A stretch of DNA of 64,000 nt, from positions 37,910-101,909 of the forward strand of contig LCPF01000001.1 in the NCBI GenBank assembly GCA_001003475.1, read 5' to 3'. Under the pieces are notes generated by a model. It was not told the origin of the DNA, made no database searches, and saw only the letters and a program-made list of their open reading frames with translations. This stretch comes from Candidatus Jorgensenbacteria bacterium GW2011_GWA1_48_11. GTDB taxonomy: Bacteria; Patescibacteriota; Minisyncoccia; UBA6257; GWB1-50-10. Position numbers and translations under genes: made by a program. Shown here piece after piece: positions 6,405 to 16,932 of the stretch (positions within the stretch are counted from its first letter, which is position 1; each line of letters begins with the position of its first letter).

Positions 6405-6475
6405 TGCCGGGTCGTCTAACGGTAGGACCGCAGACTCTGGATCTGTGTATCTAGGTTCGAATCCTAGCCCGGCAG
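6405..6475 (+). tRNA. tRNA-Gln (anticodon CTG)
   Basis: Hand-folded cloverleaf: 7-bp acceptor stem (TGCCGGG/CCCGGCA), D-arm, anticodon stem GCAGA/TCTGT with loop CTCTGGA (U33, CTG, G37), 4-nt variable loop, and T-arm CTAGG-TTCGAAT-CCTAG. 71 nt; no encoded CCA. Confidence 0.75.
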
Positions 6476-6515
6476 CACTCGAAACTTTTTATCCCAAGAC
6501 CGAGAGGGGTAACAG

Positions 6516-9356
6516 CTAACTCAAAAGACCGCGCTTCACCACAACCGCTCTTAAGGTGGAGAGGTCGTCTTTCAGCTCAAATGACTTTTCTAATCGCGGG
6601 TCGTTTGCGATACCAGCCCAAAAAGCAAGCTTTGCTTTAACTTCTTTATCGTCTACATGCGATTGTTTTGTTATTGAGATAAGCGTCTCAAGGGGCATGT
6701 ATAGACCATTGTTTACTTCTGAACCAGAGAAAAACGGATCGCCCTTAAGCACGTCATCAAGGTTTTTCCACCCCTCTTTAAGGGGATACTTACTCCAGTA
6801 CAATTTTATAGCTCCGGGATGTTGCTTTAGTCCTCTACGTGCAGCATTTCGGATTTTATTAATCTCGTTCGTCGCCTCCTTAGATCCCGACCAACTTTGA
6901 TAAAGGACGTAGAAGAAATTTTCCTCGTATTTATAAATAATTTTCTTCCCAAGAAAATATCTTGCTTGCAAATCTTCAAAGACCGATTTTATAGCGTTCT
7001 TAACATCTTGATCGAAGTATTTTAACAGCTTGTCAAAAGCGGCTTCTAAGCGCTGATGTATGGAGCTACCACTACCACGTTCATTATTAGCTAGAGAATT
7101 TAATACAATATACTTCGCGCCAATATTTACAGATGACGAACTTAAAATCTTCTTCAAGATTTTAAGAACAGATTTTAGTCCTTCATCCGCTTTTTCTCCA
7201 CTTTTGTCTTTTTCAATCACGGATAGGATTTGAAAAACAAATTGGTAGATAGCCTCATCATATTCAGTGTCCCCAACGTTCATTGGTTGCAGAACAATCT
7301 TTCCATTCACAAGTCGTTTCCCTAATTCGTCCATGATCCTAATATTCAAATCCTCAGAAACATCCCACATTTCATGCACAAATCTTGCATATCCAACCAA
7401 GTCTTTGTTATTTAGCGTCGAGAGAGTCTTGTTGGATTTATCACTCTGGTGCTGTTGGTAAATTCGGCTGTATTTTCTATATCCCGTCTCAACACTTTCT
7501 GAAACCAACGAGAGATAATCGTGCATTATTTCTGGGTATGACGTGGTCCCAGAATATTGAATTTTGTTTTTTGTGTCATAACTTCTTTGCAGAAAATCAA
7601 GATAATAATGCATAACAAGTCCGATATATTTCTCAGTATTAATTTTTTCCTCATCCGAAAGCGTCCTTCCAATAATTGATTCAACCCAACCAATCAGTCC
7701 TGTCTTTTTTTCCTCCAATTCTTTCTTAATAAGATAACCGCCTAAATTGTCTTTTTCTGTTTGTGCAATAAGTAAATGGATTGTTTTCATAAAAAATTCG
7801 ATAAGAAATGGATGCTGGATCTTGATAAATTCCAACATAGTAACGTCACTAAATCGAATCGCATTTACCTTTTGTCCACCACTTCTGTCCCTAAACGATC
7901 CATAGAAAAACTCCAGGGCGGTAGAAACTCGAGCAACTACTCTAGGCGACTGCTCGGCAAGAACTCCAACCACGTAACCCATGGCGTCACTGTGTTTTCC
8001 CATGAAGGAAATGTTTGGGTGTGAAAAGGTATGTGGATAAATTTCTGTAGGAGTATCAACGCCTTCACTCTTCGCGATATTTGTTAACAAATCGTCGACA
8101 TATTTATATCTAATTAGTGGCTCAACTGGTGGAAGAAATATTCTCTGCACAACACTTTTCGGATCGTCATAAAAGAAGGTTTGCAGCGGCCGAACACGCG
8201 AATCTACGCTTTCGAATGTCTGCAAATGCTTTCTAAATTCTGGCTCTGAGATACAAAAAATAAAAATCAACTTTATGGGAAGGCCAGATCTTCCTTCGTT
8301 TTTGAAACGCTCAACAATTTCAACGAGGCGATATATTTCATCAAGCTGTCCTCGCTCAATCTCATCCACCATGATAATCCATAGCAACTCTTTAATTTCA
8401 GGAATATTTCCAAAAATCCTACCGACTATTTTTGAGGTAAATACTTTCTTGTCACCGTAAAATTGATCGTATGCGACGGCCCTTGTTTTTATCAACCCCC
8501 AATTAAAAAGCGACAGTATCTTGAGAAGGTCCGACAAAAGTCCATTTCCTGATTCTCGAAGAATTGACTGCATGAACGGAAGATACGATGCGACATCCAA
8601 TTTGGGGTATCTTTCTGTGAGGGTTTCGATCCAACGTTCCGCAAAAAGCCTAGAAAAATCTTTTGCCTCATTTGTTTCCGTAAGCGAAATATAGGTATAT
8701 AAAGTTTTTATTGGATCGAAGTTTTCGATAATCATCCTTGCATAAGACGACTTACCAAAACCAAGTCCTCCATAAATTCCAACAACATTCACATAATTAT
8801 TGAGTTTTTTAAGGCCGCTTGCCGCGTTCTTTGCTGAGGGTTCAAAAGTTAGCTTGTCATCTTTTGGTCCGACCGCCCCCGCGGCAAAGTTTCTAAAGGT
8901 AAGATCGGGAGATTGACATAAATGCTCGTTCAGCTTTTTTAAGAGCATTGTTATCAGTGCCAGCACTAGGCCGATCCAGCAATATCCTGACAACCAAAAT
9001 TCAGTCGGGTGGGCTATTAAGGCGACGGCCGACCACAGGATTAGACCATTCACAAACCCCCAATAAAAATAGAAAACCCATGAAGGCTGGTTGTGTAGCC
9101 CTTGCTTTTTTAACTGAGCCGCTGGTCTTATAAAAAAATGGATTAAACCAATGACAATCAGTAAAGCGAGAGTACCAAGAACAATGAAGATGGTTTGGTT
9201 TGCATAAAATAAATCCGTAACTAAATCCCGGATTGGAGGTCCAAATTTATAAAACAAGAGGAAGTTAAGGAACGAGATGGAGACAACCCAAAACAACCTC
9301 CACGCAAAAAGGTGTTTGTAGAATATGTCAAGCCCCGGCAGTGATTTATCCTCCAT
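6516..9356 (-). CDS. membrane-anchored P-loop NTPase, KAP/STAND-like (946 aa)
   Basis: Four predicted N-terminal TM helices. Walker A GGLGFGKSS (GxxGxGKS) about 45 aa after the last TM, and Walker B IIMVDEIER (hhhhDE). A roughly 500-aa alpha-helical C-terminal region. AT-rich relative to flanking genes. Confidence 0.6.
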   Translation of the reverse strand: MEDKSLPGLDIFYKHLFAWRLFWVVSISFLNFLLFYKFGPPIRDLVTDLFYANQTIFIVLGTLALLIVIGLIHFFIRPAAQLKKQGLHNQPSWVFYFYWGFVNGLILWSAVALIAHPTEFWLSGYCWIGLVLALITMLLKKLNEHLCQSPDLTFRNFAAGAVGPKDDKLTFEPSAKNAASGLKKLNNYVNVVGIYGGLGFGKSSYARMIIENFDPIKTLYTYISLTETNEAKDFSRLFAERWIETLTERYPKLDVASYLPFMQSILRESGNGLLSDLLKILSLFNWGLIKTRAVAYDQFYGDKKVFTSKIVGRIFGNIPEIKELLWIIMVDEIERGQLDEIYRLVEIVERFKNEGRSGLPIKLIFIFCISEPEFRKHLQTFESVDSRVRPLQTFFYDDPKSVVQRIFLPPVEPLIRYKYVDDLLTNIAKSEGVDTPTEIYPHTFSHPNISFMGKHSDAMGYVVGVLAEQSPRVVARVSTALEFFYGSFRDRSGGQKVNAIRFSDVTMLEFIKIQHPFLIEFFMKTIHLLIAQTEKDNLGGYLIKKELEEKKTGLIGWVESIIGRTLSDEEKINTEKYIGLVMHYYLDFLQRSYDTKNKIQYSGTTSYPEIMHDYLSLVSESVETGYRKYSRIYQQHQSDKSNKTLSTLNNKDLVGYARFVHEMWDVSEDLNIRIMDELGKRLVNGKIVLQPMNVGDTEYDEAIYQFVFQILSVIEKDKSGEKADEGLKSVLKILKKILSSSSVNIGAKYIVLNSLANNERGSGSSIHQRLEAAFDKLLKYFDQDVKNAIKSVFEDLQARYFLGKKIIYKYEENFFYVLYQSWSGSKEATNEINKIRNAARRGLKQHPGAIKLYWSKYPLKEGWKNLDDVLKGDPFFSGSEVNNGLYMPLETLISITKQSHVDDKEVKAKLAFWAGIANDPRLEKSFELKDDLSTLRAVVVKRGLLS

Positions 9357-9463
9357 CTAAATATGAACTTCCTTGATTTCTATCTGCGATTTTCCTTCTT
9401 TTCTTGGTTGCTGGAAATTTATCAAAAGACCATCTTTGATTTTGAGGATTTTCATGTAATTTT

Positions 9464-10570
9464 TTATTTTCTCTCAAGTTCCTCAAGCGGAGGATAGGTT
9501 TTTTGTTGGCCTGCGATAAGCTTCGGCACCTCTTTGCCCTCTCCAAGCGCTAGTAATCCCCTGAGTCGTAAATCAATAACTCCGACGTCCATGTACATAT
9601 CCTTATAGGATTTGTAACGTTTTTTCCACGCCTGGTGATGCGCATGAATTTCGGATTTCAAATCTCCAGCAAGCGTTAACAGCTGATGAGCTACGCCGTT
9701 AACTTTGTCGCCATACTCATTTCCTGCCAGATATTTGTAGACTTCGTTTACGGCCCTCATTTTCTCGGCATTGGATAACTTCAGTAGTGCGATCCGCACC
9801 AAGCTTTGCCGCAAAACATATGTGACTGGCTCAACATTTACGGGGCTGATGACAAATACCGTGTTGGAAACGAAATAAGACTGCCTCTTAGCCGGAAAAG
9901 CATTGGTAACGAGAACCGCGAAGTTAGCTTGCCTGAATTCGCGCGCGTCAGCGGCCTGCTGGACATGGTTCTGGCTGAAAGACTTAACCTTTTTGCATTC
10001 GTAAACGATCTTACCGACAGGCTTATCCTGCTCCATAACGGTTTGAATAATATCCCCGCCCTTCCCCGGATGGTCGAAGTGGTCGTGCGGAAATAATTCC
10101 TTAAGTTTTGCTAGAAGCTTGTCTTCTTCGAGTAAGCCTTCAATCTGTGGCGTAATTCCTTTTTCCATTTGCTCTCTCAGGCGTTTTATTTCTTGATCGC
10201 CCTTCTCTTTTTTCTCCAAAGCGATTTTCAAGCTTCGCTCCAATTGCCCCATTTTATTCTTAGTCTGGGCAACGCCTTTCGCGGTTTGCGTTTCCAATTT
10301 CTTCTTAAACGTTTCCTGGTCTAGTTTCCGCTGTTCACGGAAGTTGGCGGCAAGTTTGTGTTTTTCTTCTGCTACGGCGCGCTTTGCGGCACGCTGCAAT
10401 TCAGCCTTCTCTTTTTTCCATAATTCGGCTTTGCGCTTTAATTCTTTTCGCTCCTCTTCGAGGTGTTTAATCTCTTCATGTTTCGCTTTCCAAATACCGA
10501 GGGCTTTATCATATTCCTCCTGAGTCAACGGCTTACCGCATACGGGGCATTTTTTTGTTTGGTTTTCCAT
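9464..10570 (-). CDS. DUF2130-like protein: N-terminal CPxCG zinc-knuckle, long coiled coil, C-terminal PD-(D/E)xK-like domain
   Basis: KCPVCGKPL at the N-terminus; about 130 aa of K/E-rich heptad-like sequence; C-terminal GGDIIQ...(18 aa)...YECKKV fits a D...E-x-K nuclease motif. Confidence 0.5.
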   Translation of the reverse strand: MENQTKKCPVCGKPLTQEEYDKALGIWKAKHEEIKHLEEERKELKRKAELWKKEKAELQRAAKRAVAEEKHKLAANFREQRKLDQETFKKKLETQTAKGVAQTKNKMGQLERSLKIALEKKEKGDQEIKRLREQMEKGITPQIEGLLEEDKLLAKLKELFPHDHFDHPGKGGDIIQTVMEQDKPVGKIVYECKKVKSFSQNHVQQAADAREFRQANFAVLVTNAFPAKRQSYFVSNTVFVISPVNVEPVTYVLRQSLVRIALLKLSNAEKMRAVNEVYKYLAGNEYGDKVNGVAHQLLTLAGDLKSEIHAHHQAWKKRYKSYKDMYMDVGVIDLRLRGLLALGEGKEVPKLIAGQQKTYPPLEELERK

Positions 10571-10583
10571 AGATATAGTTGGA

Positions 10584-11393
10584 TTACGCCGTGTCTATTT
10601 CTTTGGCGACTTTCTCGATTAAAGATTTCAATGAAACCCGGTCAAGCGTAATTATTTTTTTTGTCCCATAAATAAGGTTGAGCTCTTTCATTAAATCCCT
10701 AATTTTCTCTCTAGATTGTGCAAATTTCTTGTTCCCCCCGAGGTATTCAAGGACGGTAATAAGTATTCGGTCAGACCGCCCCATGGCGCGTTCAAGAACC
10801 TGCTGATAGATATCCTGCATTGAAAGGAGGATGCGGGTGAAATAGTATGGGTCCTTCTTTTTCAAATCGCCGAAGAAACCCGGATCGCGCTCCCACGGCG
10901 CGTAAGTGAGATGGGCGGCCCACCAGAGCCGCGCGATGGCGTGCCTGCGCAAGTCCCGGTCGTTCCCCCTTACAAACCAGTGCTCTAAAAGCTGGTTGAT
11001 GGCGCGCTGCTTGGCGTCGTCTGTTTTGAGGTCTTTGTATTCTCCGGGCAGGCCCCATCGTACAAGTGAGTACTTGCGGAATTCGACGTGGCTTAGGTAT
11101 GCCCAAAGCCTCGGATCGGAAGCCTGAGTTTCGTCTATGGCGCCGTAAAACTCATGGAGAGCTATGGCATTTTCTAGGTCTGTAGCGACCGGGTCCCTCT
11201 TTAGAGCTTTCAAGAATGGGGATTTACCTTGAACGGGGATTGTCGAAAGGAGTAGGTCCTTGTCTTTCACAGGATAGGAATGTTGGAAATAAGTCTTAAG
11301 AGAACTGCCGGAGCGCAGATCGGCCCTCATTTGCTCGATGACCGCCCGCTTGAAGATTTTTTGGTATTGGGTTTTATTCATACTCTCGTTCAT
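10584..11393 (-). CDS. hypothetical protein (island gene C, 269 aa, Trp-rich)
   Basis: Complete ORF that overlaps by 20 nt the 3' end of the upstream ORF 11374..12222 (gene B), which suggests translational coupling; no recognisable domain; conserved-looking WAYLSHVEF...RLWWAAHLTY segment. Confidence 0.55.
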   Translation of the reverse strand: MNESMNKTQYQKIFKRAVIEQMRADLRSGSSLKTYFQHSYPVKDKDLLLSTIPVQGKSPFLKALKRDPVATDLENAIALHEFYGAIDETQASDPRLWAYLSHVEFRKYSLVRWGLPGEYKDLKTDDAKQRAINQLLEHWFVRGNDRDLRRHAIARLWWAAHLTYAPWERDPGFFGDLKKKDPYYFTRILLSMQDIYQQVLERAMGRSDRILITVLEYLGGNKKFAQSREKIRDLMKELNLIYGTKKIITLDRVSLKSLIEKVAKEIDTA

Positions 11394-12222
11394 CGTTGGT
11401 CTCGAGCAACGACCCTATGCTTTGGAATCCCCGTGAGACGGGGTTGTCGAGAATTTTCTGCGCAACATCAAACGGGTCCTTGTCCCTAAGGCCCTTACCG
11501 TCAAGGATGGCCTCCAAACGGCCGAACCAGCTCATGTCCGCGTAGTCGCCGTTCCCGTTCTGTACTTGGTGCACCGCATCGATCAAGACTGGGAAGACTA
11601 TGGAAGCGTGCAACATCCCCTCTGCGAGCTTCTGGCCCCTGACATCCATGTAACTCTGCCAATCGGTTTTTGAAAGGATGACGGTAATTTTCTCGCCTTC
11701 ATAGTCGATCTGCATTGGCCCTTCGTGATGGCTGCCCACTACTATCGACATGAAAGACGAGACCGGTGGCCGGAGAGGATCGAAATTCTTCTCGGCTATG
11801 AACGAAGTGTACCCTCCGACTGCGAGGACATCACCCGCTTCTACGTCGAAAGATGCTCCTTCGTAATCTGGATGGCATTCGCTCGGCTGGTAGCCGGGGA
11901 TGTCCTTGTCGGCGCACACGTAGAAGCCAACCGCCACTCTTTCGCGGACCAGTTTCGACGGAATCATGAACCTGTCGATTGTTTTCCTCGTAGAATAGCT
12001 TGACCGGAAGAAAGTGCTTTGGCATTCGACTTCAGTCACGAATGACGCCTTTCCGTCCCGGATCAGCTCCTCGATCTTCGCGTTCTTCAAATTAAATATC
12101 GGGTTCAGCGTAATCTCGTCTTTTTTTAGTTCATAATGGAAGGGAGCGACGCGGAAAAAACCGCCGAGGTCGTCTTCGTTGCCAAGCACCGGATGCGGGT
12201 ATGATTTTGAATTAACCCTCAT
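11374..12222 (-). CDS. hypothetical protein (island gene B, 282 aa)
   Basis: Complete ORF that overlaps by 11 nt the 3' end of the upstream ORF 12212..13324 (gene A); no recognisable domain; possible metal-binding SHHEG patch. Confidence 0.55.
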   Translation of the reverse strand: MRVNSKSYPHPVLGNEDDLGGFFRVAPFHYELKKDEITLNPIFNLKNAKIEELIRDGKASFVTEVECQSTFFRSSYSTRKTIDRFMIPSKLVRERVAVGFYVCADKDIPGYQPSECHPDYEGASFDVEAGDVLAVGGYTSFIAEKNFDPLRPPVSSFMSIVVGSHHEGPMQIDYEGEKITVILSKTDWQSYMDVRGQKLAEGMLHASIVFPVLIDAVHQVQNGNGDYADMSWFGRLEAILDGKGLRDKDPFDVAQKILDNPVSRGFQSIGSLLETNDEREYE

Positions 12223-13324
12223 AGCTTTCTATGCCTAAGGCATATTTTTTCCTCGACTCGAGCCTCACGGCAAGGCGGATGGTCTGCCCGTTCTTAATGG
12301 AAAGGCCCTTGATCATAGATCCATCTGTTTCATATTTCGCCTTGGAGTCGATGTCCGTCGCTGATTTTATTTCGGCTGGATAGCTGTTGTCGTCGCCGAC
12401 CGCCACCAGCCTTATCCCTCCTTCGCACTCCTCGCGGCCCGTGATTGCGAAATGGTATTCGGGGCCTTCTTTCGTTTTCTGGATGAAGCTCCGGAAGGAT
12501 ATTGCGGAGGTTTTTATCCTGACGCCTTCTTCCCCTCCCGCTTCCGGCCCGGTCGGCCTTCCATGCGGCCCTTTGCCTGGGCCTTTGGGTGGCGTGCGCT
12601 TCACCCCTCCCGGCTCCTTGTTCGTAACTATGCTTTTCCGGATGACTTTTTCCACGTCCGCAGGGGATTCTTCTTTATTCGCGCCGACTTCGCGCCCGCT
12701 TTCCTGGGTTCCTTCCAGGTCGGTCGGATCGAACGCGGCCCCTTGCTGCGGAAGGTAGTCCCTGTCTTCATTGTCTGGCAGGTACTTATCCAACCCCGGG
12801 ATGTCCTGAGGTTCAGTAGTAACGGTCCCTCCCATGCTTTTCAACGATTCCTTTATGAAATCGTCCAGCTCGTGCATGGCCGCCCATCCGTTCTTGGCCC
12901 GGTCCCTGTCCCATTTATCGTGGGCGGGCGGCTCCATGTCTCGGAGAAGCCTGTTGCCGCGCTCGTCGTCACAGATGAAGACTCCGGCGTAAGGCTCCCT
13001 CAGCACGCGGGATGCTTTTTCCGTAACGAGCATTTTCGGCTTCCGGACCATCATGACTTTGCTGGGGTAATTTTCCTGCTTGCGCACGAAAAGCAGGACC
13101 TTCCCGAGGTGCTTCAACTCCTGTTCGAATTTCTGCTCCCAGTTCGTGGCCGCTTCGTAGAAGAATTTCGCGTCCTCCGCATCGAATTCGCTGAACTTCT
13201 CCGGTAGGTTGTCCTTCGTTATGCGGATTTCAGAGCCGTCCTTGACCACTACTTCAAGGTCGCCGTGAAGGATGGCAAGCCAAAAATTTTGAACGCACGC
13301 ATAGAAAGAAACTACCGCATTCAT
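12212..13324 (-). CDS. hypothetical protein (island gene A, 370 aa, with central Gly/Pro/Glu-rich disordered linker)
   Basis: First gene of the island operon. Globular N- and C-terminal parts are separated by a low-complexity segment KEPGGVKRTPPKGPGKGPHGRPTGPEAGGEEG. No recognisable domain. Confidence 0.55.
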   Translation of the reverse strand: MNAVVSFYACVQNFWLAILHGDLEVVVKDGSEIRITKDNLPEKFSEFDAEDAKFFYEAATNWEQKFEQELKHLGKVLLFVRKQENYPSKVMMVRKPKMLVTEKASRVLREPYAGVFICDDERGNRLLRDMEPPAHDKWDRDRAKNGWAAMHELDDFIKESLKSMGGTVTTEPQDIPGLDKYLPDNEDRDYLPQQGAAFDPTDLEGTQESGREVGANKEESPADVEKVIRKSIVTNKEPGGVKRTPPKGPGKGPHGRPTGPEAGGEEGVRIKTSAISFRSFIQKTKEGPEYHFAITGREECEGGIRLVAVGDDNSYPAEIKSATDIDSKAKYETDGSMIKGLSIKNGQTIRLAVRLESRKKYALGIESYEG

Positions 13325-13453
13325 TTTAAGAACAAATACGAGAAGGCGGTTGTATTAAACGCGGAAAAGCTAACCGCACGGCAAATCTCCAACAAGATAT
13401 TGAAAGATCTTAGATACTGAACCAGAGAACGCGGCACTAAAAACTTCTCATCC

Positions 13454-13484
13454 CAAAAACCGGGATGAGCTGATTTCCCCGGTT
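13454..13484 (-). terminator. intrinsic terminator of the 13483..14295 membrane-protein gene
   Basis: On the minus-strand RNA: CCGGG-(13-nt loop)-CCCGG followed by UUUUU. The hairpin overlaps the stop codon. It separates this gene from the island operon, whose promoter region is 13325..13450. Confidence 0.5.
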
Positions 13485-14295
13485 ATTGGGTTATTCCGCT
13501 CAGTGCCCGCTCTTCCGCGGTTTTTCTGAACTGCGGCGTGAAATGACAAAGAATAAAAACGTAAGCGGCGAATTTGAAAATATGCCCCAGCATGTTGTGA
13601 AAGTAGTAAGCGCCGGGATAGAGAGTGAATTGGAATTCGCTGAAGATCGTGAAAACGAAAAAAAGCAGAAAATAATAAGGCGGGACGGCGCCCAACTTCC
13701 TGCTCTCATACCAATAAAGAAAGGCGGTCGCCGCAAACAGGAACATCAAGAAAATTTCGACTTCTATTTTCACGATGGTCAGGCCGAAAACTTTGGCCAT
13801 TGACGGCAATTGGGGAACGAAATAATAAACAGCGAGAAAAACGGCCATAGCGACCACGAAAGCGATCGCCACGCTTCCCGCAATGCTTAACTTGGATCTC
13901 GTTGAAGGCTTTATAAACACGCTTATCAAGAGTCCGGCCGCGACAATGAACCTCGCCGTAAGCCAAAAATAAATGGCGGTGTTTACCGTCGGGAAAATGA
14001 TCGTTTGGGGCATTCCGCCGTAGCTTAGAATATGCAGGATGTCGATCACGGCGGACGCAAGAAAAACGATGCAGAAAACCAAAGAACGCGCGCTTTGCGT
14101 AATCTGATAAGCGGAAAAGGCATAGAGGCCGATGACGAGAGCCACGGCAACGGTGAAAAATTCAACCAAGGCGTGGAAACCGAGATACCACATCCCGAAT
14201 TCGTAATAAAAAGCGCTGGGCTTGACGCCGGTTATAAGGATGACAGCAAGGGCCACAATGGCAAAAATCCAAAAATTTTTGCGCGAAATAATCAT
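13483..14295 (-). CDS. polytopic integral membrane protein (about 7-8 TM, sensor-domain-like, no output domain)
   Basis: 270 aa, almost entirely hydrophobic helices; no catalytic motif. Confidence 0.5.
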   Translation of the reverse strand: MIISRKNFWIFAIVALAVILITGVKPSAFYYEFGMWYLGFHALVEFFTVAVALVIGLYAFSAYQITQSARSLVFCIVFLASAVIDILHILSYGGMPQTIIFPTVNTAIYFWLTARFIVAAGLLISVFIKPSTRSKLSIAGSVAIAFVVAMAVFLAVYYFVPQLPSMAKVFGLTIVKIEVEIFLMFLFAATAFLYWYESRKLGAVPPYYFLLFFVFTIFSEFQFTLYPGAYYFHNMLGHIFKFAAYVFILCHFTPQFRKTAEERALSGITQ

Positions 14296-14344: not shown

Positions 14345-16932
14345 CTAACCGGGATTTCTGGCGAATACAGTCCTCGCCAAAAGCTTCCTTACTTCTTCAA
14401 GCAAAAGGATCGAAGCGGCAATCGAGGCCGCGTAAACCCATTCCCAAGCGGTAAGCGGCACCGTATGCAGGAATCGCTGCATAAAAGGATGATAAACCGC
14501 CAAGAACTGCAGCCCGATTATCAAAATCGTCGCACCGACCAAAAACATGTTTTTGAAAGGATTGATGGAAAAGACAGATTTGTCTTCACTCTTGCAATTC
14601 CACGCGTTGAACCACTGGAAAACCGCAAGCGTGGTCAGGGTCATAGTGAGCGCTTTCTCCAAATCACCGTCAAGGTACTGCCTAAACACAAAAAGAGACC
14701 CAAGAGCAATAATGATTCCCATAAACACCATTCGCTTCATCGCGAACGAATCAAGAATATACCTGGCGGGCTTCGCATAGCGGCGGCCGAGCAGGCCGTC
14801 CTCCCGCGGCTCCATCGCGAGCGAGACGTCGAGGAAGCCGTCGGTGACGAAGTTAAGCCAGATAATCTGAACCGGCAAGAGCGGCAGGGGGAGCCCCATG
14901 AACATCGCGCCGGAAATGGTAAGCACCTCCCCGATGCCGGTCGAGAAAAGATAAAGAATAACCTTCCTAATGGTCTTGTAGATATTCCGGCCCTCTTCAA
15001 CGGCGGAAATGACGCTCCCGAAATTGTCGTCCAAGAGCACGAGGTCGGCGGCTTCCTTGGCCACCTCGGTGCCGATTTTTCCCATCGCCACGCCGAGATC
15101 GGCGGCCGCGAGAGAAGGCGCATCGTTTACGCCGTCGCCGGTCATGGCAACCACCTCGCCCCGTTTTCTGAACAGCTCGATGATCCGCATTTTATGTTCG
15201 GGGGTCACGCGCGCAAAAACATTGCAGATTCCGAATTTTTTCGACAATTCTTCATCCGAGAGCTTTTCCAATTCTTCTCCGGTGATGACGCCATCCTTCC
15301 CATCCGCAAGCCCCGCTTCTTCCGCAATCGCACGAGCGGTAATCTTGTGATCCCCGGTGATCATCACGACCCGGATGCCGGCCTGTTTGGCCCTTTCGAT
15401 GGCGCCTTTCACTTCTTCCCGCAACGGGTCTTTCATGCCGAAAAAACCGCCAAAAATAAGCGGCGGCAATTTTCCGCTAGTCACGGAGTCGCCCGCGTCC
15501 GGGTTGATCGCAAAAGCGAGAACCCGAAAACCCCGCTGGGACATGTCGAAAAATACGGCTTCGAGCCCTTCTTTTTCAGCGCCGGAAAGTTTCTCTGATT
15601 TCTTCGCTCGCCAGACGCGATCACAAAGCTCGAGGATCTTTTCCGGCGCGCCAACAACGGTCAGAAAATTCCTGTTTTCAAACCTGTGAATCGTAGCGTG
15701 ATACTTGGTGAGATAATCGAAAGGCAGTTCGGCTATCTTGGGTGATTCCTGCTCGCCATCCCTGAAGCCGATCTTGCGGCCGAACACTCCCAAGGCCGCC
15801 TCGGTCGGGTCGCCGGACACTTTCCAGATATTCTTTCCTTCCACATACATTGCATGAGCATTGGAGCAAAACAAAGCAACTCTTCCCGCCAGCACAAGCT
15901 CCGGATGATTCAATGGCTCGACGGCCGCTCCCTTCAGGAGCACTCTTCCTTCCGGCTCATAGCCGCGCCCCTCAACATCAAATGTCTTTCCGTCAACATA
16001 CACTTTCTCAAGCGTCATCTCATTTTTAGTGAGAGTGCCGGTTTTATCGACGGCGATGATCTTCGCCTGCCCCAACGCCTCGACTGCCTGTAATTTCTTA
16101 ACCAGCACATTGCGCTTAGTCATGCGCCACACTCCCGAAGCCAAAACCAGGGTCATGACTATCGGCAGGCCTTCCGGAATAATCGAGACCGCAAGAGACA
16201 CCACGGTTGCGAACATCTGCCTCAACGATTCTCCGGCGGCAAGACCAAAAACCATAAGAACGGTTCCGATCGAAAACACGGTGATGATGATAAGGCGGGA
16301 AAGACAACAACCGCCTTGCCGTTGCCGCTTGCGATATTGGTACCCTTGAAAATCATGTTCCTTTGGTCATACGCAGAAATGCGAATATTGCCCAACGCAT
16401 CGCTGGTCTTTAAGACCGGAACAGACTCGCCGGTAAGGCTAGCCTCATTAACGCGGAGGGAATTGACGGAGATAAGTCGGGCGTCGGCGGGAATTTTATC
16501 GCCTTCCTGAAGAATGACGACGTCACCGGGAACAATTTCCTTGTCGGGTACGATCATGATTTTACCGTCCCGCAACACCGAAGCGGAAGTCTCCACGAAT
16601 CTCCGGAGAGCCAGCAACGTATATTGAGCTCTTCCTTCCTGAATTGTTCCCACGATCGCGTTGAATATGAGGACCAGGAAAATAATGACCGCATCAGCGG
16701 TCTCGCCCATGAATAAAACAACCGCCGCGGCGGCCATCAAAACATAGATGAGCGGGCTTAAGAACTGCGAAAGAAATATGGAAAATACGCCGGCGACTTT
16801 TGGTTCCGGGAGAGAATTGGGGCCATACCCGACAAGACGCTTACTGGCCTCTTCAAAACTCAGCCCCGATTCGTCAGAATCGAGTTCTTCAAATATCTCC
16901 GACGGTCGTTTCGCATACCAACGAATACTCAT
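14345..16932 (-). pseudogene. P-type cation-transporting ATPase (type II, Ca2+/Mg2+-like) split by a frameshift or small deletion near 16300
   Basis: ORF 16222..16932 encodes the N-terminus, the first TM pair and the actuator domain (LTGESVP), then runs out of frame after GNGKAVVV. ORF 14345..16279 encodes the rest (DKTGTLT phosphorylation site, MITGDHKITA, GDGVNDAPSLAAADLGVAMG, C-terminal TM helices). Its upstream in-frame extension (LSRLIIITVFSIGTV) is the expected M3 helix. About 20 aa of the expected ATG..T..GKIA..TPLQ segment appear to be missing. This could instead be an assembly error. Confidence 0.5.

What the first reader, a model, noticed from the sequence alone, without database searches (positions are those of the whole stretch)
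13434..13464. Imperfect ~28-nt direct repeat brackets the island (attL/attR-like): 6475..6504 versus 13434..13464
The sequence starting at the tRNA-Gln discriminator base (GCACTCGAAACTTTTTATCCCAAGACCG, 6475..6502) recurs at the far end of the island just upstream of the island operon (GCACTAAAAACTTCTCATCCCAAAAACCG, 13434..13462). Ungapped, 20 of the first 25 positions match; with a single 1-nt gap, 23 of 28 match. I found this by comparing only the two island boundaries, so a chance match is unlikely. A tRNA 3' end followed by a degenerate direct repeat at the distal boundary is the classic signature of site-specific integration. No integrase gene remains, which suggests an old, fixed island or one mobilised in trans.
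Basis: seen in the sequence. Interest (0 to 1): 0.6.

Follow-up and report, generated by a model that had tools for sequence, protein, structure and literature searches.

The report
Scar of a decayed tRNA-Gln defence island
The two similar 35-base stretches are real and most likely the leftover attachment sites of a 7-kb mobile anti-phage island that inserted just after a tRNA-Gln gene in a Jorgensenbacteria (CPR) genome and later lost its recombinase, which is an ordinary kind of feature seen here in an unusual lineage.

Summary
The repeat exists and is not chance. Region 6472..6505 aligns with 13431..13465 at 27 of 35 columns, score 18 against a null of 6.0±1.2 (maximum 13 in 3000 shuffles). 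It is the best match to the tRNA trailer anywhere in the window. It covers the last 3-5 nt of tRNA-Gln(CTG) plus about 30 nt of trailer; the tRNA body is not repeated.

The 6.96 kb between the copies carries a 946-aa P-loop-like gene, a DUF2130 gene, and PDC-M33 C, B and a 5'-truncated A. Over 100 homologues of A are about 623 aa, but only residues 262-623 survive here.

Intact relatives carry a large serine recombinase, then Dcm, Vsr, a 72-aa gene and A-B-C, ending at a convergent tRNA. Some are bounded by direct repeats, and one element sits in two different tRNA-Ser genes.

A related genome has MASE3 directly convergent with tRNA-Gln (an empty-site gene order). Two others carry different inserts at that spot. 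The distal copy also serves as the MASE3 terminator hairpin.

Verdict: degenerate attL/attR of a decayed, immobile, fixed island. This is a new member of a known kind. The recombinase type (serine favoured) is inferred, not shown.

The parts
6405..6476 (+). Intact tRNA-Gln (anticodon CTG), the integration target. Its 3' end faces the island.
   Evidence: ARAGORN. Conserved beside the 152-aa gene in relatives.
6472..6505 (+). Repeat copy 1 (attL-like): the last 3 nt of the acceptor stem, the discriminator, and about 30 nt of trailer. Only a weak hairpin. Contains TATC..AGACCGAGAGGGGT, a motif shared with trailers of other CPR tRNA-Gln loci that carry serine recombinases.
   Evidence: alignment and statistics; fold not better than shuffles; motif shared with L122, L134, L169.
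6516..9356 (-). 946-aa cargo gene, GC 39.5% against 47.8% for the window. Only weak P-loop NTPase signals (KAP_NTPase, ATPase_2, PifA). No recombinase domain. Absent from related cassettes.
   Evidence: tblastn found no hit in L026-L110.
9411..9431 (+). Possible third, weaker copy of the trailer motif (CTGGAAATTTATCAAAAGACC), lying between the low-GC 946-aa gene and the DUF2130 gene. It would mark tandem accretion of two cassettes. Suggestive only.
   Evidence: score 11 against 7.5±1.1, P=0.011 versus copy 1; no match to copy 2.
9464..10570 (-). DUF2130 gene (368 aa) with a coiled-coil SMC/Rad50-like N-terminus. Accessory cargo also found after PDC-M33C in L026-L028.
10584..11393 (-). PDC-M33C (DUF6339).
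   Evidence: Pfam 6.9e-40; PADLOC 3.6e-35.
11374..12222 (-). PDC-M33B.
   Evidence: PADLOC 1.8e-59, full length.
12212..13324 (-). 5'-truncated PDC-M33A. Only the equivalent of residues 262-623 of the roughly 623-aa protein is present; homology ends at 13300. The N-terminal domain (carrying an ETLQNAVDA motif that I read as GHKL-ATPase-like) and all upstream genes (72-aa gene, Vsr, Dcm, recombinase) are missing.
   Evidence: matches profile positions 249-625 of 627; more than 100 homologues of about 623 aa; tblastn of P0032: 81% identity over 262-623, nothing for 1-261.
13325..13430 (.). 106-nt spacer of unknown origin between the truncated gene and repeat copy 2. Presumed deletion junction plus the inner arm of the old att site.
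   Evidence: No similarity to the tRNA body or to any fetched locus. Stops in the frame of gene A.
13431..13465 (+). Repeat copy 2 (attR-like).
13437..13469 (-). Intrinsic-terminator-like hairpin CTCATCCCGG-TTT-TTGGGATGAG (as the scan draws it, 10 pairs, G-T allowed) followed by AAGTTTTTAG, 14 nt after the MASE3 stop codon. It overlaps repeat copy 2.
   Evidence: 10-pair stem with T tail; -19 kcal/mol.
13483..14295 (-). MASE3-domain membrane protein (270 aa), the chromosomal right flank. In relative L022 it lies directly convergent with tRNA-Gln.

Best explanation
**What it is.** The two copies are the degenerate attL and attR of an integrative defence island. The island entered the genome of a Candidatus Jorgensenbacteria bacterium by site-specific recombination at the extreme 3' end and trailer of tRNA-Gln(CTG).

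**How it arose.**
- Before insertion, tRNA-Gln and the MASE3 gene were convergent neighbours separated by a short spacer containing a hairpin terminator.
- Recombination between that spacer (attB) and a similar site on the element (attP) placed about 7 kb between them.
- This left a hybrid site at each end. Copy 1 is the tRNA end plus the element arm. Copy 2 is the element arm plus the native trailer, which still terminates MASE3.

**What it carried.** The element belonged to a family common in CPR bacteria. It carries a cassette of Dcm methylase, Vsr, a 72-aa gene and PDC-M33 A-B-C, and it is moved by an on-board recombinase. In the closest relatives that recombinase is a large serine recombinase.

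**What happened afterwards.** A later internal deletion removed the recombinase, Dcm, Vsr, the 72-aa gene and the first 261 codons of PDC-M33A. The island is therefore now immobile, its PDC-M33 system is probably dead, and it is fixed in the population.

**Shown:** the repeat, its significance, the gene truncation, the empty-site gene order in a relative, and the architecture of intact relatives.

**Inferred:** the recombination event itself, the recombinase type, and the order of events.
For: **The repeat**
- It is far above chance and is the best trailer match in the whole window.

**The interval in relatives**
- L022 (MASE3 74% identical) has MASE3, then 391 nt, then a convergent tRNA-Gln(CTG), with no island.
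- L023 encodes the identical MASE3 protein. It matches L022 up to about 37 nt from where the tRNA 3' end would be, then carries at least 6.8 kb of unrelated genes.
- L025 has a 2.5-kb insert between MASE3 and tRNA-Gln(TTG).

**The cargo**
- It is defence-type, and part of it has atypical GC (39.5% against 47.8%).
- PDC-M33A is 5'-truncated.

**Intact relatives of the cassette**
- L026-L030 share 74-77% nucleotide identity with the window's cassette.
- They carry LSR, Dcm, Vsr, the 72-aa gene and A-B-C, and end at a convergent tRNA-Ser.
- L029 and L030 are 99.97% identical over 12.4 kb, yet sit in tRNA-Ser(GGA) and tRNA-Ser(GCT) respectively. Clean identity stops about 8 nt into the tRNA 3' end.
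- L029 has a distal repeat of the tRNA 3' end. A serine recombinase is the only recombinase annotated inside that element.
- L047 carries the same cassette in an island with two tyrosine integrases. It is bounded by an 80-nt repeat comprising the tRNA-Thr 3' part plus a trailer hairpin (score 25 against 8.1±1.7).
- A convergent tRNA lies 1.8-4.6 kb after gene A in six of the genome-survey CPR loci, L033, L037, L040, L045, L047 and L048, in addition to L026-L030.

**Other tRNA-Gln loci**
- Among 119 tRNA-Gln(CTG) loci, serine-recombinase genes lie on the 3' side in 10 (all convergent, 60-4780 nt away) and on the 5' side in 1.
- L122 shows a trailer-only direct repeat bracketing a one-gene cassette, the same geometry as in the window.
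- Copy 1, but not copy 2, shares TATC..AGACCGAGA.GGGT with the L122, L134 and L169 trailers.
Against: - No recombinase gene or remnant is present in the window's island.
- No sequence-level empty site was found. Relatives are too distant for their trailers to align, and every near-identical contig has the island.
- The repeat does not include a displaced tRNA fragment, which is the classical signature.
- The copies are only 77% identical, with identical blocks of at most 6 nt, so no crossover point can be named.
- Copy 2 has an independent function as a terminator, and copy 1 sits where a terminator would also be expected.
- L122, L134 and L169 come from related organisms, so their shared trailer motif could be vertical rather than element-borne.
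- The 106 nt next to copy 2 match nothing, so it is not shown that the distal end is an original element end.
Confidence: 0.68

Rival explanations
1. Functional convergence or a shared terminator. Both copies would be bidirectional terminators or tRNA-trailer elements between convergent genes (tRNA-Gln versus the 946-aa gene; the A' operon region versus MASE3). They would resemble each other because of shared function or a lineage-typical tRNA-Gln trailer, not because of recombination.
For: - Copy 2 is a strong hairpin with a T tail, 14 nt after the MASE3 stop.
- Copy 1 lies between two convergent genes.
- The tRNA-Gln(TTG) trailer in L025 starts GCACTATAAATTTCT, which resembles both copies.
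Against: - The similarity is in primary sequence, including non-stem positions (GCACT, AAACTT).
- Copy 1 does not fold better than shuffled sequence.
- No other terminator or intergenic region in 64 kb scores above 14.
- 79 other tRNA-Gln trailers score at most 10 against copy 2.
- This does not explain why the repeat brackets exactly the segment that L022 lacks.
Confidence: 0.14
2. The island arrived by a route other than site-specific recombination at this site, such as homologous replacement through flanking genes or illegitimate recombination. The repeat would then be a by-product, such as a local duplication of the trailer at the junction, or an older att scar from a different, vanished element.
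For: - No recombinase is on board.
- The distal end is a truncation junction inside a gene.
- The interval is a hotspot with several different inserts.
- Tandem accretion is seen in L122.
- There is a possible third copy at 9411..9431, so the present pair need not belong to a single event.
Against: Related cassettes lie in the same orientation, directly against tRNA 3' ends, in repeat-bounded elements. The simplest reading is therefore that this one arrived the same way.
Confidence: 0.13
3. Chance resemblance of two A/T-rich intergenic stretches.
For: Both regions are low-complexity and A/T-rich.
Against: - 0 of 3000 and 0 of 2000 shuffles, and 0 of 4000 real windows, reach the observed score. 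A Gumbel fit gives roughly 1e-4 to 1e-5 (my estimate from the null mean and standard deviation).
- It is the top hit in the whole window.
Confidence: 0.03

Closest known systems
tRNA-gene-associated genomic islands bounded by attL/attR direct repeats (the 'Islander' signature; Hudson, Lau and Williams, PMC4383910)
   Same: - An intact tRNA gene at one end with the island on its 3' side.
- A direct repeat at the far end.
- Accessory defence cargo and partly atypical GC.
- Absence from a relative.
- The interval is used repeatedly by different inserts.
   Different: - The repeat is trailer plus only the last 3-5 nt of the tRNA, not a displaced tRNA fragment.
- There is no integrase on board.
- The copies are only 77% identical.
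- The host is a CPR bacterium with a 0.64-Mb genome.
Large-serine-recombinase integrative elements (the phiC31, Bxb1 and SCCmec CcrAB type)
   Same: - The closest intact relatives of the cargo cassette have a Resolvase+Recombinase+Zn_ribbon_recom gene directly upstream of Dcm.
- In L029 it is the only recombinase inside the repeat-bounded element.
- The att region is short and lacks long identity blocks, as is typical for serine integrases (from my own knowledge).
   Different: - No such gene is present in the window.
- Serine recombinases were stated not to be known to target tRNA genes (PMC4383910). I could not check whether later work changed this.
- The same cassette also travels on a tyrosine-integrase island (L047).
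PDC-M33 candidate defence system (PADLOC-DB v2)
   Same: Genes B and C match at full length, and the C-terminal 60% of A matches.
   Different: - A lacks its N-terminal domain.
- The Dcm, Vsr and 72-aa genes that accompany A-B-C in essentially all relatives are absent.
- The system here is probably a relic.
Defence islands carried on integrative elements at tRNA hotspots (for example the E. coli defence-island repertoire, PMC10121019)
   Same: Defence systems are clustered at a tRNA-linked hotspot whose content differs between relatives.
   Different: This one is in a CPR lineage, is a decayed single copy, and is fixed rather than variable within the species.

Membership tests
tRNA-associated genomic island with att direct repeats (Islander-type) | Intact tRNA or tmRNA gene at one island end | tested here: met
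   tRNA-Gln(CTG) at 6405..6476.
tRNA-associated genomic island with att direct repeats (Islander-type) | A displaced fragment of that tRNA gene at the other end | tested here: not met
   Only the last 3-5 nt of the tRNA are repeated. The tRNA body versus 13340..13430 gives P 0.6-0.9. The repeat is trailer sequence (27 of 35).
tRNA-associated genomic island with att direct repeats (Islander-type) | A direct repeat bracketing the island that exceeds chance | tested here: met
   Score 18 against 6.0±1.2, maximum 13 in 3000 shuffles. It is the best hit in the window.
tRNA-associated genomic island with att direct repeats (Islander-type) | Integrase gene on board | tested here: not met
   Pfam, NCBIfam and PADLOC found no recombinase domain in any of the five large ORFs; smaller ORFs inside the island were not scanned. 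The gaps between these genes are 39, 107 and 158 nt.
tRNA-associated genomic island with att direct repeats (Islander-type) | Empty site in related genomes corresponding to one repeat copy | tested here: inconclusive
   L022 shows the empty gene order (MASE3 convergent with tRNA-Gln), but its spacer does not align with the window's. No closer relative lacking the island exists in the databases searched.
Large-serine-recombinase integrative element | Resolvase + Recombinase + Zn-ribbon recombinase gene within the element | tested here: not met
   Absent from the window. Present in relatives L026-L030, L033, L040, L046 and beside tRNA-Gln in 10 of 119 loci.
Large-serine-recombinase integrative element | attL/attR with a short central crossover and imperfect dyad half-sites, recombined by the enzyme | not testable with these tools
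   Both copies carry an imperfect dyad (TTATCCC..GGGGTAA and CTCATCCC..GGGATGAG). Assigning function needs biochemistry.
PDC-M33 defence system (PADLOC) | Complete A, B and C genes | tested here: not met
   B and C are complete. A covers only profile positions 249-625 of 627 and residues 262-623 of P0032.
Intrinsic (Rho-independent) terminator (copy 2 only) | GC-containing stem-loop followed by a T tract just after a stop codon | tested here: met
   10-pair stem plus AAGTTTTTAG on the minus strand at 13469..13447, -19 kcal/mol, 14 nt after the MASE3 stop. Function was not tested.

The most novel reading that the evidence does not exclude
CPR/Patescibacteria may harbour a family of large-serine-recombinase elements that integrate at the extreme 3' end or trailer of tRNA genes (Gln, Ser and perhaps others) and shuttle defence cassettes between lineages. 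This would contradict the view that only tyrosine integrases target tRNA genes. The window's repeat pair would be the fossil att sites of one such element. The evidence does not exclude this reading and mildly favours it:
- A serine recombinase is the only recombinase annotated in the repeat-bounded L029 element.
- The same element occupies two different tRNA-Ser genes.
- Serine-recombinase genes show a 10-to-1 bias towards the 3' side of tRNA-Gln, and all 10 are convergent with the tRNA.
Probability: 0.4. Interest if true: 0.6.

Novelty: new member of a known kind. Interest (0 to 1): 0.3.

Why it matters
For this genome the finding is housekeeping knowledge. It delimits a 7-kb horizontally acquired, now immobile defence island. 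It also flags the PDC-M33 genes as a truncated relic that should not be counted as a functional system.

The wider value lies in the comparative by-products:
- The tRNA-Gln/MASE3 interval is a recurrent insertion hotspot in Jorgensenbacteria.
- PDC-M33 A-B-C is almost always accompanied by Dcm, Vsr and a 72-aa gene, so it is probably a methylation-linked system.
- In CPR bacteria the cassette travels on tRNA-targeting elements whose only recombinase is often a large serine recombinase.

If that last link is real, it would broaden the known target range of serine integrases and supply new tRNA-specific att/integrase pairs.

Tried and rejected
- **Extension of the repeat into the tRNA T-arm.** The local alignment runs on, but the extra part nets only +3 and is not significant alone. 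I rejected the ideas of a displaced tRNA fragment and of a decayed second tRNA-Gln gene.
- **Empty site within the same species.** All contigs encoding the exact 152-aa or MASE3 proteins carry the island. The apparent exceptions L013-L015 are just short contigs of the same sequence.
- **Sequence-level comparison of trailers in relatives** (L017, L019, L021, L022, L025). They are too diverged to align.
- **Metagenome scan for the degenerate repeat pattern.** Zero hits.
- **The search for related loci with the single protein P0032 in genomes.** No confirmed hit. The alignment-based query worked.
- **Homology of the 106-nt spacer 13325..13430, and of either copy, to any fetched locus.** Nothing significant.
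- **Identity of the 946-aa protein.** No PDB sequence relative and only sub-threshold P-loop hits. It is not a recombinase.
- **Literature on PDC-M33 or DUF6339.** None found. No paper was found on serine integrases at tRNA genes in CPR.
- **Assembly artefact.** Rejected, because independent assemblies are 100% identical.

Full report
**1. Observation**

The window carries tRNA-Gln(CTG) at 6405..6476 on the + strand.

The best-supported extent is slightly longer. Region 6472..6505 aligns with 13431..13465 (GCAGCACTCGAAACTTTTTATCCC-AAGACCGAGA versus GCGGCACTAAAAACTTCTCATCCCAAAAACCGGGA), with 27 identities in 35 columns.

- The local score is 18, against a shuffle null of 6.0±1.2 (maximum 13 in 3000).
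- For the 81-nt boundary regions the score is 20. The null is 7.8±1.5 for shuffles and 7.5±1.4 (maximum 14) for 4000 real windows.
- When the trailer is slid over the whole window on both strands, the best non-self hit is the other boundary. Nothing else exceeds 14.
- The alignment seems to run into the T-arm, but that part is not significant on its own, and neither is the whole tRNA body against 13340..13430 (P 0.6-0.9).

So the repeat covers the very end of the tRNA plus about 30 nt of trailer. It is not a displaced tRNA fragment. Independent assemblies from several samples are 100% identical here.

**2. What lies between and beside the copies**

All island genes are on the minus strand:

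| Gene | Coordinates | Notes |
|---|---|---|
| 946-aa protein | 6516..9356 | Sub-threshold P-loop signals only; GC 39.5% against 47.8% for the window |
| DUF2130 protein | 9464..10570 | |
| PDC-M33C (DUF6339) | 10584..11393 | |
| PDC-M33B | 11374..12222 | |
| PDC-M33A-like ORF, 370 aa | 12212..13324 | |

The last ORF is only the C-terminal 60% of PDC-M33A.
- It matches profile positions 249-625 of 627.
- More than 100 homologues are about 623 aa long.
- tblastn with the 81%-identical P0032 aligns residues 262-623 to 13300..12215 and finds nothing for residues 1-261 anywhere in the window.
- The frame upstream of the ATG is closed by stop codons.

None of the five large ORFs has a recombinase domain, and the gaps between them are 39, 107 and 158 nt.

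The flanks are chromosomal:
- On the left are a 152-aa gene, SOD, fmt, def and ribosomal proteins L9 and L27.
- On the right is a MASE3-only membrane protein (13483..14295, minus strand), then a P-type ATPase, FtsX/FtsE and RF2.

Copy 2 overlaps a strong hairpin, CTCATCCCGG-TTT-TTGGGATGAG, followed by AAGTTTTTAG on the minus strand. It lies 14 nt after the MASE3 stop codon and is an intrinsic-terminator-like site. Copy 1 has only a weak hairpin that folds no better than shuffled sequence.

**3. Source and population**

The 152-aa protein is annotated in NCBI as coming from Candidatus Jorgensenbacteria bacterium GW2011_GWA1 (CPR), on a 635,647-bp contig.

Every contig carrying the exact 152-aa protein (16 read) or the exact MASE3 protein (20 read) also carries the island, or breaks off inside it. 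The island is therefore fixed in this species, and no empty site exists in the population sampled.

**4. Relatives of the flanks**

tRNA-Gln(CTG) sits beside the 152-aa gene in L017, L019 and L021. Each time it is followed by different genes.

The most informative relatives are those with a MASE3 protein 74% identical to the window's.
- **L022.** MASE3 is followed by a 391-nt spacer and then a convergent tRNA-Gln(CTG). This is the gene order expected for an empty site.
- **L023.** It encodes the identical MASE3 protein and matches L022 until about 37 nt short of where the tRNA 3' end would be. It then carries at least 6.8 kb of unrelated small genes.
- **L025.** It has a 2.5-kb insert between MASE3 and a convergent tRNA-Gln(TTG).

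The tRNA-Gln/MASE3 interval is thus a recurrent insertion site, and the junctions fall in the tRNA trailer. The trailers themselves are too diverged to align with the window, so the empty site is shown at the level of gene order only.

**5. Relatives of the cargo**

*Architecture.* The closest PDC-M33A homologues (80-81% identical) lie in L026-L030. Their order is: large serine recombinase (Resolvase + Recombinase + Zn_ribbon_recom), Dcm C5-methylase, Vsr, a 72-aa gene, then A, B, C, then either DUF2130 or CD-NTase/Cap15, then a convergent tRNA-Ser. The window shares 74-77% nucleotide identity with them from the end of C up to the truncation point of A.

*One element in two tRNA genes.* L029 and L030 are 99.97% identical over 12.4 kb. 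They sit in tRNA-Ser(GGA) and tRNA-Ser(GCT) respectively, and clean identity ends about 8 nt into the tRNA 3' end. This is one element in two different tRNA genes.

*Repeat-bounded elements.*
- L029 has a distal direct repeat of the tRNA 3' end: 15 exact nt plus 8 of the next 9. A serine recombinase is the only recombinase annotated inside that element.
- L047 carries the same cassette within an 11-kb island holding Shedu and two tyrosine integrases. The island is bounded by an 80-nt repeat (score 25 against 8.1±1.7) comprising the tRNA-Thr 3' part and a trailer hairpin.

*Genome survey* (80 loci).
- Dcm, usually Vsr, and the 72-aa gene precede A-B-C in essentially all CPR loci.
- In Bacteroidota loci Vsr, and in some Dcm, lies downstream of C instead.
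- A convergent tRNA (Ser, Asp, Pro or Thr) lies 1.8-4.6 kb after A in L033, L037, L040, L045, L047 and L048.

The cassette is therefore regular cargo of tRNA-targeting integrative elements, oriented as in the window. The window's copy lacks everything upstream of codon 262 of A.

**6. Other tRNA-Gln loci**

A metagenome scan for the tRNA's 3' 23 nt returned 119 loci.
- Serine-recombinase genes lie on the 3' side of the tRNA in 10 of them. All are convergent and 60-4780 nt away.
- Only one lies on the 5' side, 9.2 kb away.
- Given 309 kb of downstream and 361 kb of upstream DNA, my binomial estimate is P about 0.003. Some loci are related, so this is approximate.

*Trailers.*
- Trailers are very diverse. 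None resembles copy 2 (maximum score 10).
- Copy 1 shares TATC..AGACCGAGA.GGGT with L122, L134 and L169 (scores 8-12; a fourth locus, L182, shares only the GACCGAGA.GGGT part and scores 13), against a null of 6.7±1.7.
- L122 and L169 carry serine recombinases about 63-65% identical to that of L029.

*L122.* It shows tRNA-Gln, then a trailer copy, then a single 246-aa ORF, then a second trailer copy, then the recombinase further on. The related L169 has the tRNA, one trailer and the recombinase directly. This is a trailer-only direct repeat bracketing a cassette, the same geometry as in the window.

*Caveat.* L122, L134 and L169 come from related organisms. Their shared motif could therefore be inherited vertically rather than carried by an element.

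**7. Explanation**

The most economical account has three steps.
- An integrative element carrying the Dcm/PDC-M33 cassette recombined with the tRNA-Gln 3' end and trailer.
- This left hybrid sites at both ends. Copy 1 retains the element-side arm and is closer to the trailers of recombinase-bearing loci. Copy 2 retains the native trailer, which still terminates MASE3.
- An internal deletion then removed the recombinase, Dcm, Vsr, the 72-aa gene and the 5' 40% of gene A.

Losing the methylase and disabling A in a single event makes sense if A-B-C is a methylation-dependent restriction-like module. This is inference.

A weak third match to copy 1 lies at 9411..9431, exactly at the GC break between the 946-aa gene and the rest of the island (P = 0.011). 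It hints that the island is two accreted cassettes, as in L122.

The recombinase type is not determinable from the window. Serine is favoured by the closest relatives and by the survey of tRNA-Gln loci, but L047 shows that tyrosine-integrase carriers also exist.

**8. Rivals**

- **Shared terminator or trailer function.** This explains copy 2's hairpin. It does not explain the non-stem identities, copy 1's poor fold, the absence of similar sequences at other terminators, or the coincidence with the segment that L022 lacks.
- **Entry by another route, with the repeat an unrelated or older scar.** This cannot be excluded, because the distal end is a truncation junction and the 106-nt spacer matches nothing.
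- **Chance.** The statistics effectively exclude it.

**9. Comparison with known systems and novelty**

This works like a classical tRNA-linked genomic or defence island with attL and attR. It fails two strict criteria of the Islander definition: there is no displaced tRNA fragment and no integrase on board. It is therefore best described as a decayed remnant of such an element, and as a new member of a known kind.

The Islander paper states that serine recombinases are not known to target tRNA genes (PMC4383910). I found no paper contradicting this for CPR, but I could not survey the subscription literature.

The family-level pattern seen here, in which serine-recombinase elements sit against tRNA 3' ends in CPR, is the most novel reading compatible with the data. 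It concerns the relatives rather than the window itself.

**10. Verdict**

- Interest is modest (0.3) for the feature itself. The higher-interest lead, tRNA-targeting serine integrases in CPR, would need biochemistry and better-resolved element ends.

Noticed in passing
L111-L229 (tRNA-Gln(CTG) loci from metagenomes), e.g. L169 5585..6895, L212 4962..5435, L142 582..1574 (coordinates with the tRNA on the + strand): Large-serine-recombinase genes lie on the 3' side of tRNA-Gln(CTG) in 10 of 119 loci, always convergent and 60-4780 nt away. Only one lies on the 5' side. The literature read here says serine recombinases are not known to target tRNA genes.
   Followed up: partly
L029 2703..15167 and L030 1..12359: The same 12.4-kb element (99.97% identical; serine recombinase, Dcm, Vsr, PDC-M33, CBASS CD-NTase/Cap15) sits in tRNA-Ser(GGA) in one genome and tRNA-Ser(GCT) in another. 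L029 has a distal repeat of the tRNA 3' end.
   Followed up: partly
L026-L053 and others; missing from window upstream of 13324: PDC-M33 A-B-C is almost always preceded by a Dcm C5-methylase, usually Vsr, and a conserved 72-aa gene. In Bacteroidota loci Vsr, and in some Dcm, lies after C instead. PADLOC lists only A, B and C. The system looks methylation-linked (restriction-modification-like), and A has an N-terminal ETLQNAVDA motif that I read as GHKL-ATPase-like.
   Followed up: partly
L122 1443..2343: A one-gene (246-aa) cassette is bracketed by two copies of the tRNA-Gln trailer (CAGCGC..TATCG.G..AGACC) and lies ahead of a serine-recombinase element. The related L169 lacks the cassette. 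This looks like tandem accretion at an att site.
   Followed up: partly
window 9411..9431: A weak third match to repeat copy 1 (CTGGAAATTTATCAAAAGACC) lies at the GC break between the 946-aa gene (39.5% GC) and the DUF2130 gene. P = 0.011. It possibly marks two accreted cassettes.
   Followed up: partly
window 16303 (ORFs 14345..16279 and 16222..16932, minus strand): The P-type cation ATPase is split into two ORFs because the window lacks about 91 nt that other assemblies of the same organism have (L008 7903..7992, where the gene is an intact 892 aa). This is either an assembly error or a strain-specific frameshifting deletion.
   Followed up: partly
window 6516..9356 (minus strand): A 946-aa low-GC protein with no Pfam, NCBIfam or PDB sequence match above threshold, only faint KAP/STAND-like P-loop signals and a weak PifA hit. 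It is absent from all related cassettes. It may be an uncharacterised defence NTPase.
   Followed up: partly
L019 3440..4838; L019 9653..9895; L021 6658..7335: A related Jorgensenbacteria contig has a diversity-generating-retroelement-like pair (bAvd plus reverse transcriptase) between RF2 and FtsE. GIY-YIG and LAGLIDADG endonuclease genes sit between tRNA-Gln and the 152-aa gene in two relatives.
   Followed up: no
L029 2530..2835; L030 18653..18690: There are clusters of tRNA T-arm/acceptor-like fragments in both orientations next to element ends. They are probably stacked att scars from earlier integrations.
   Followed up: no
window 13483..14295 (minus strand): The MASE3 protein is only 270 aa, a sensor domain with no PAS or kinase output (it matches positions 12-220 of the 655-position MASE3_PAS_HK model). 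Its 74%-identical homologues are the same length, so this is a stand-alone MASE3 protein and was not truncated by the island.
   Followed up: partly
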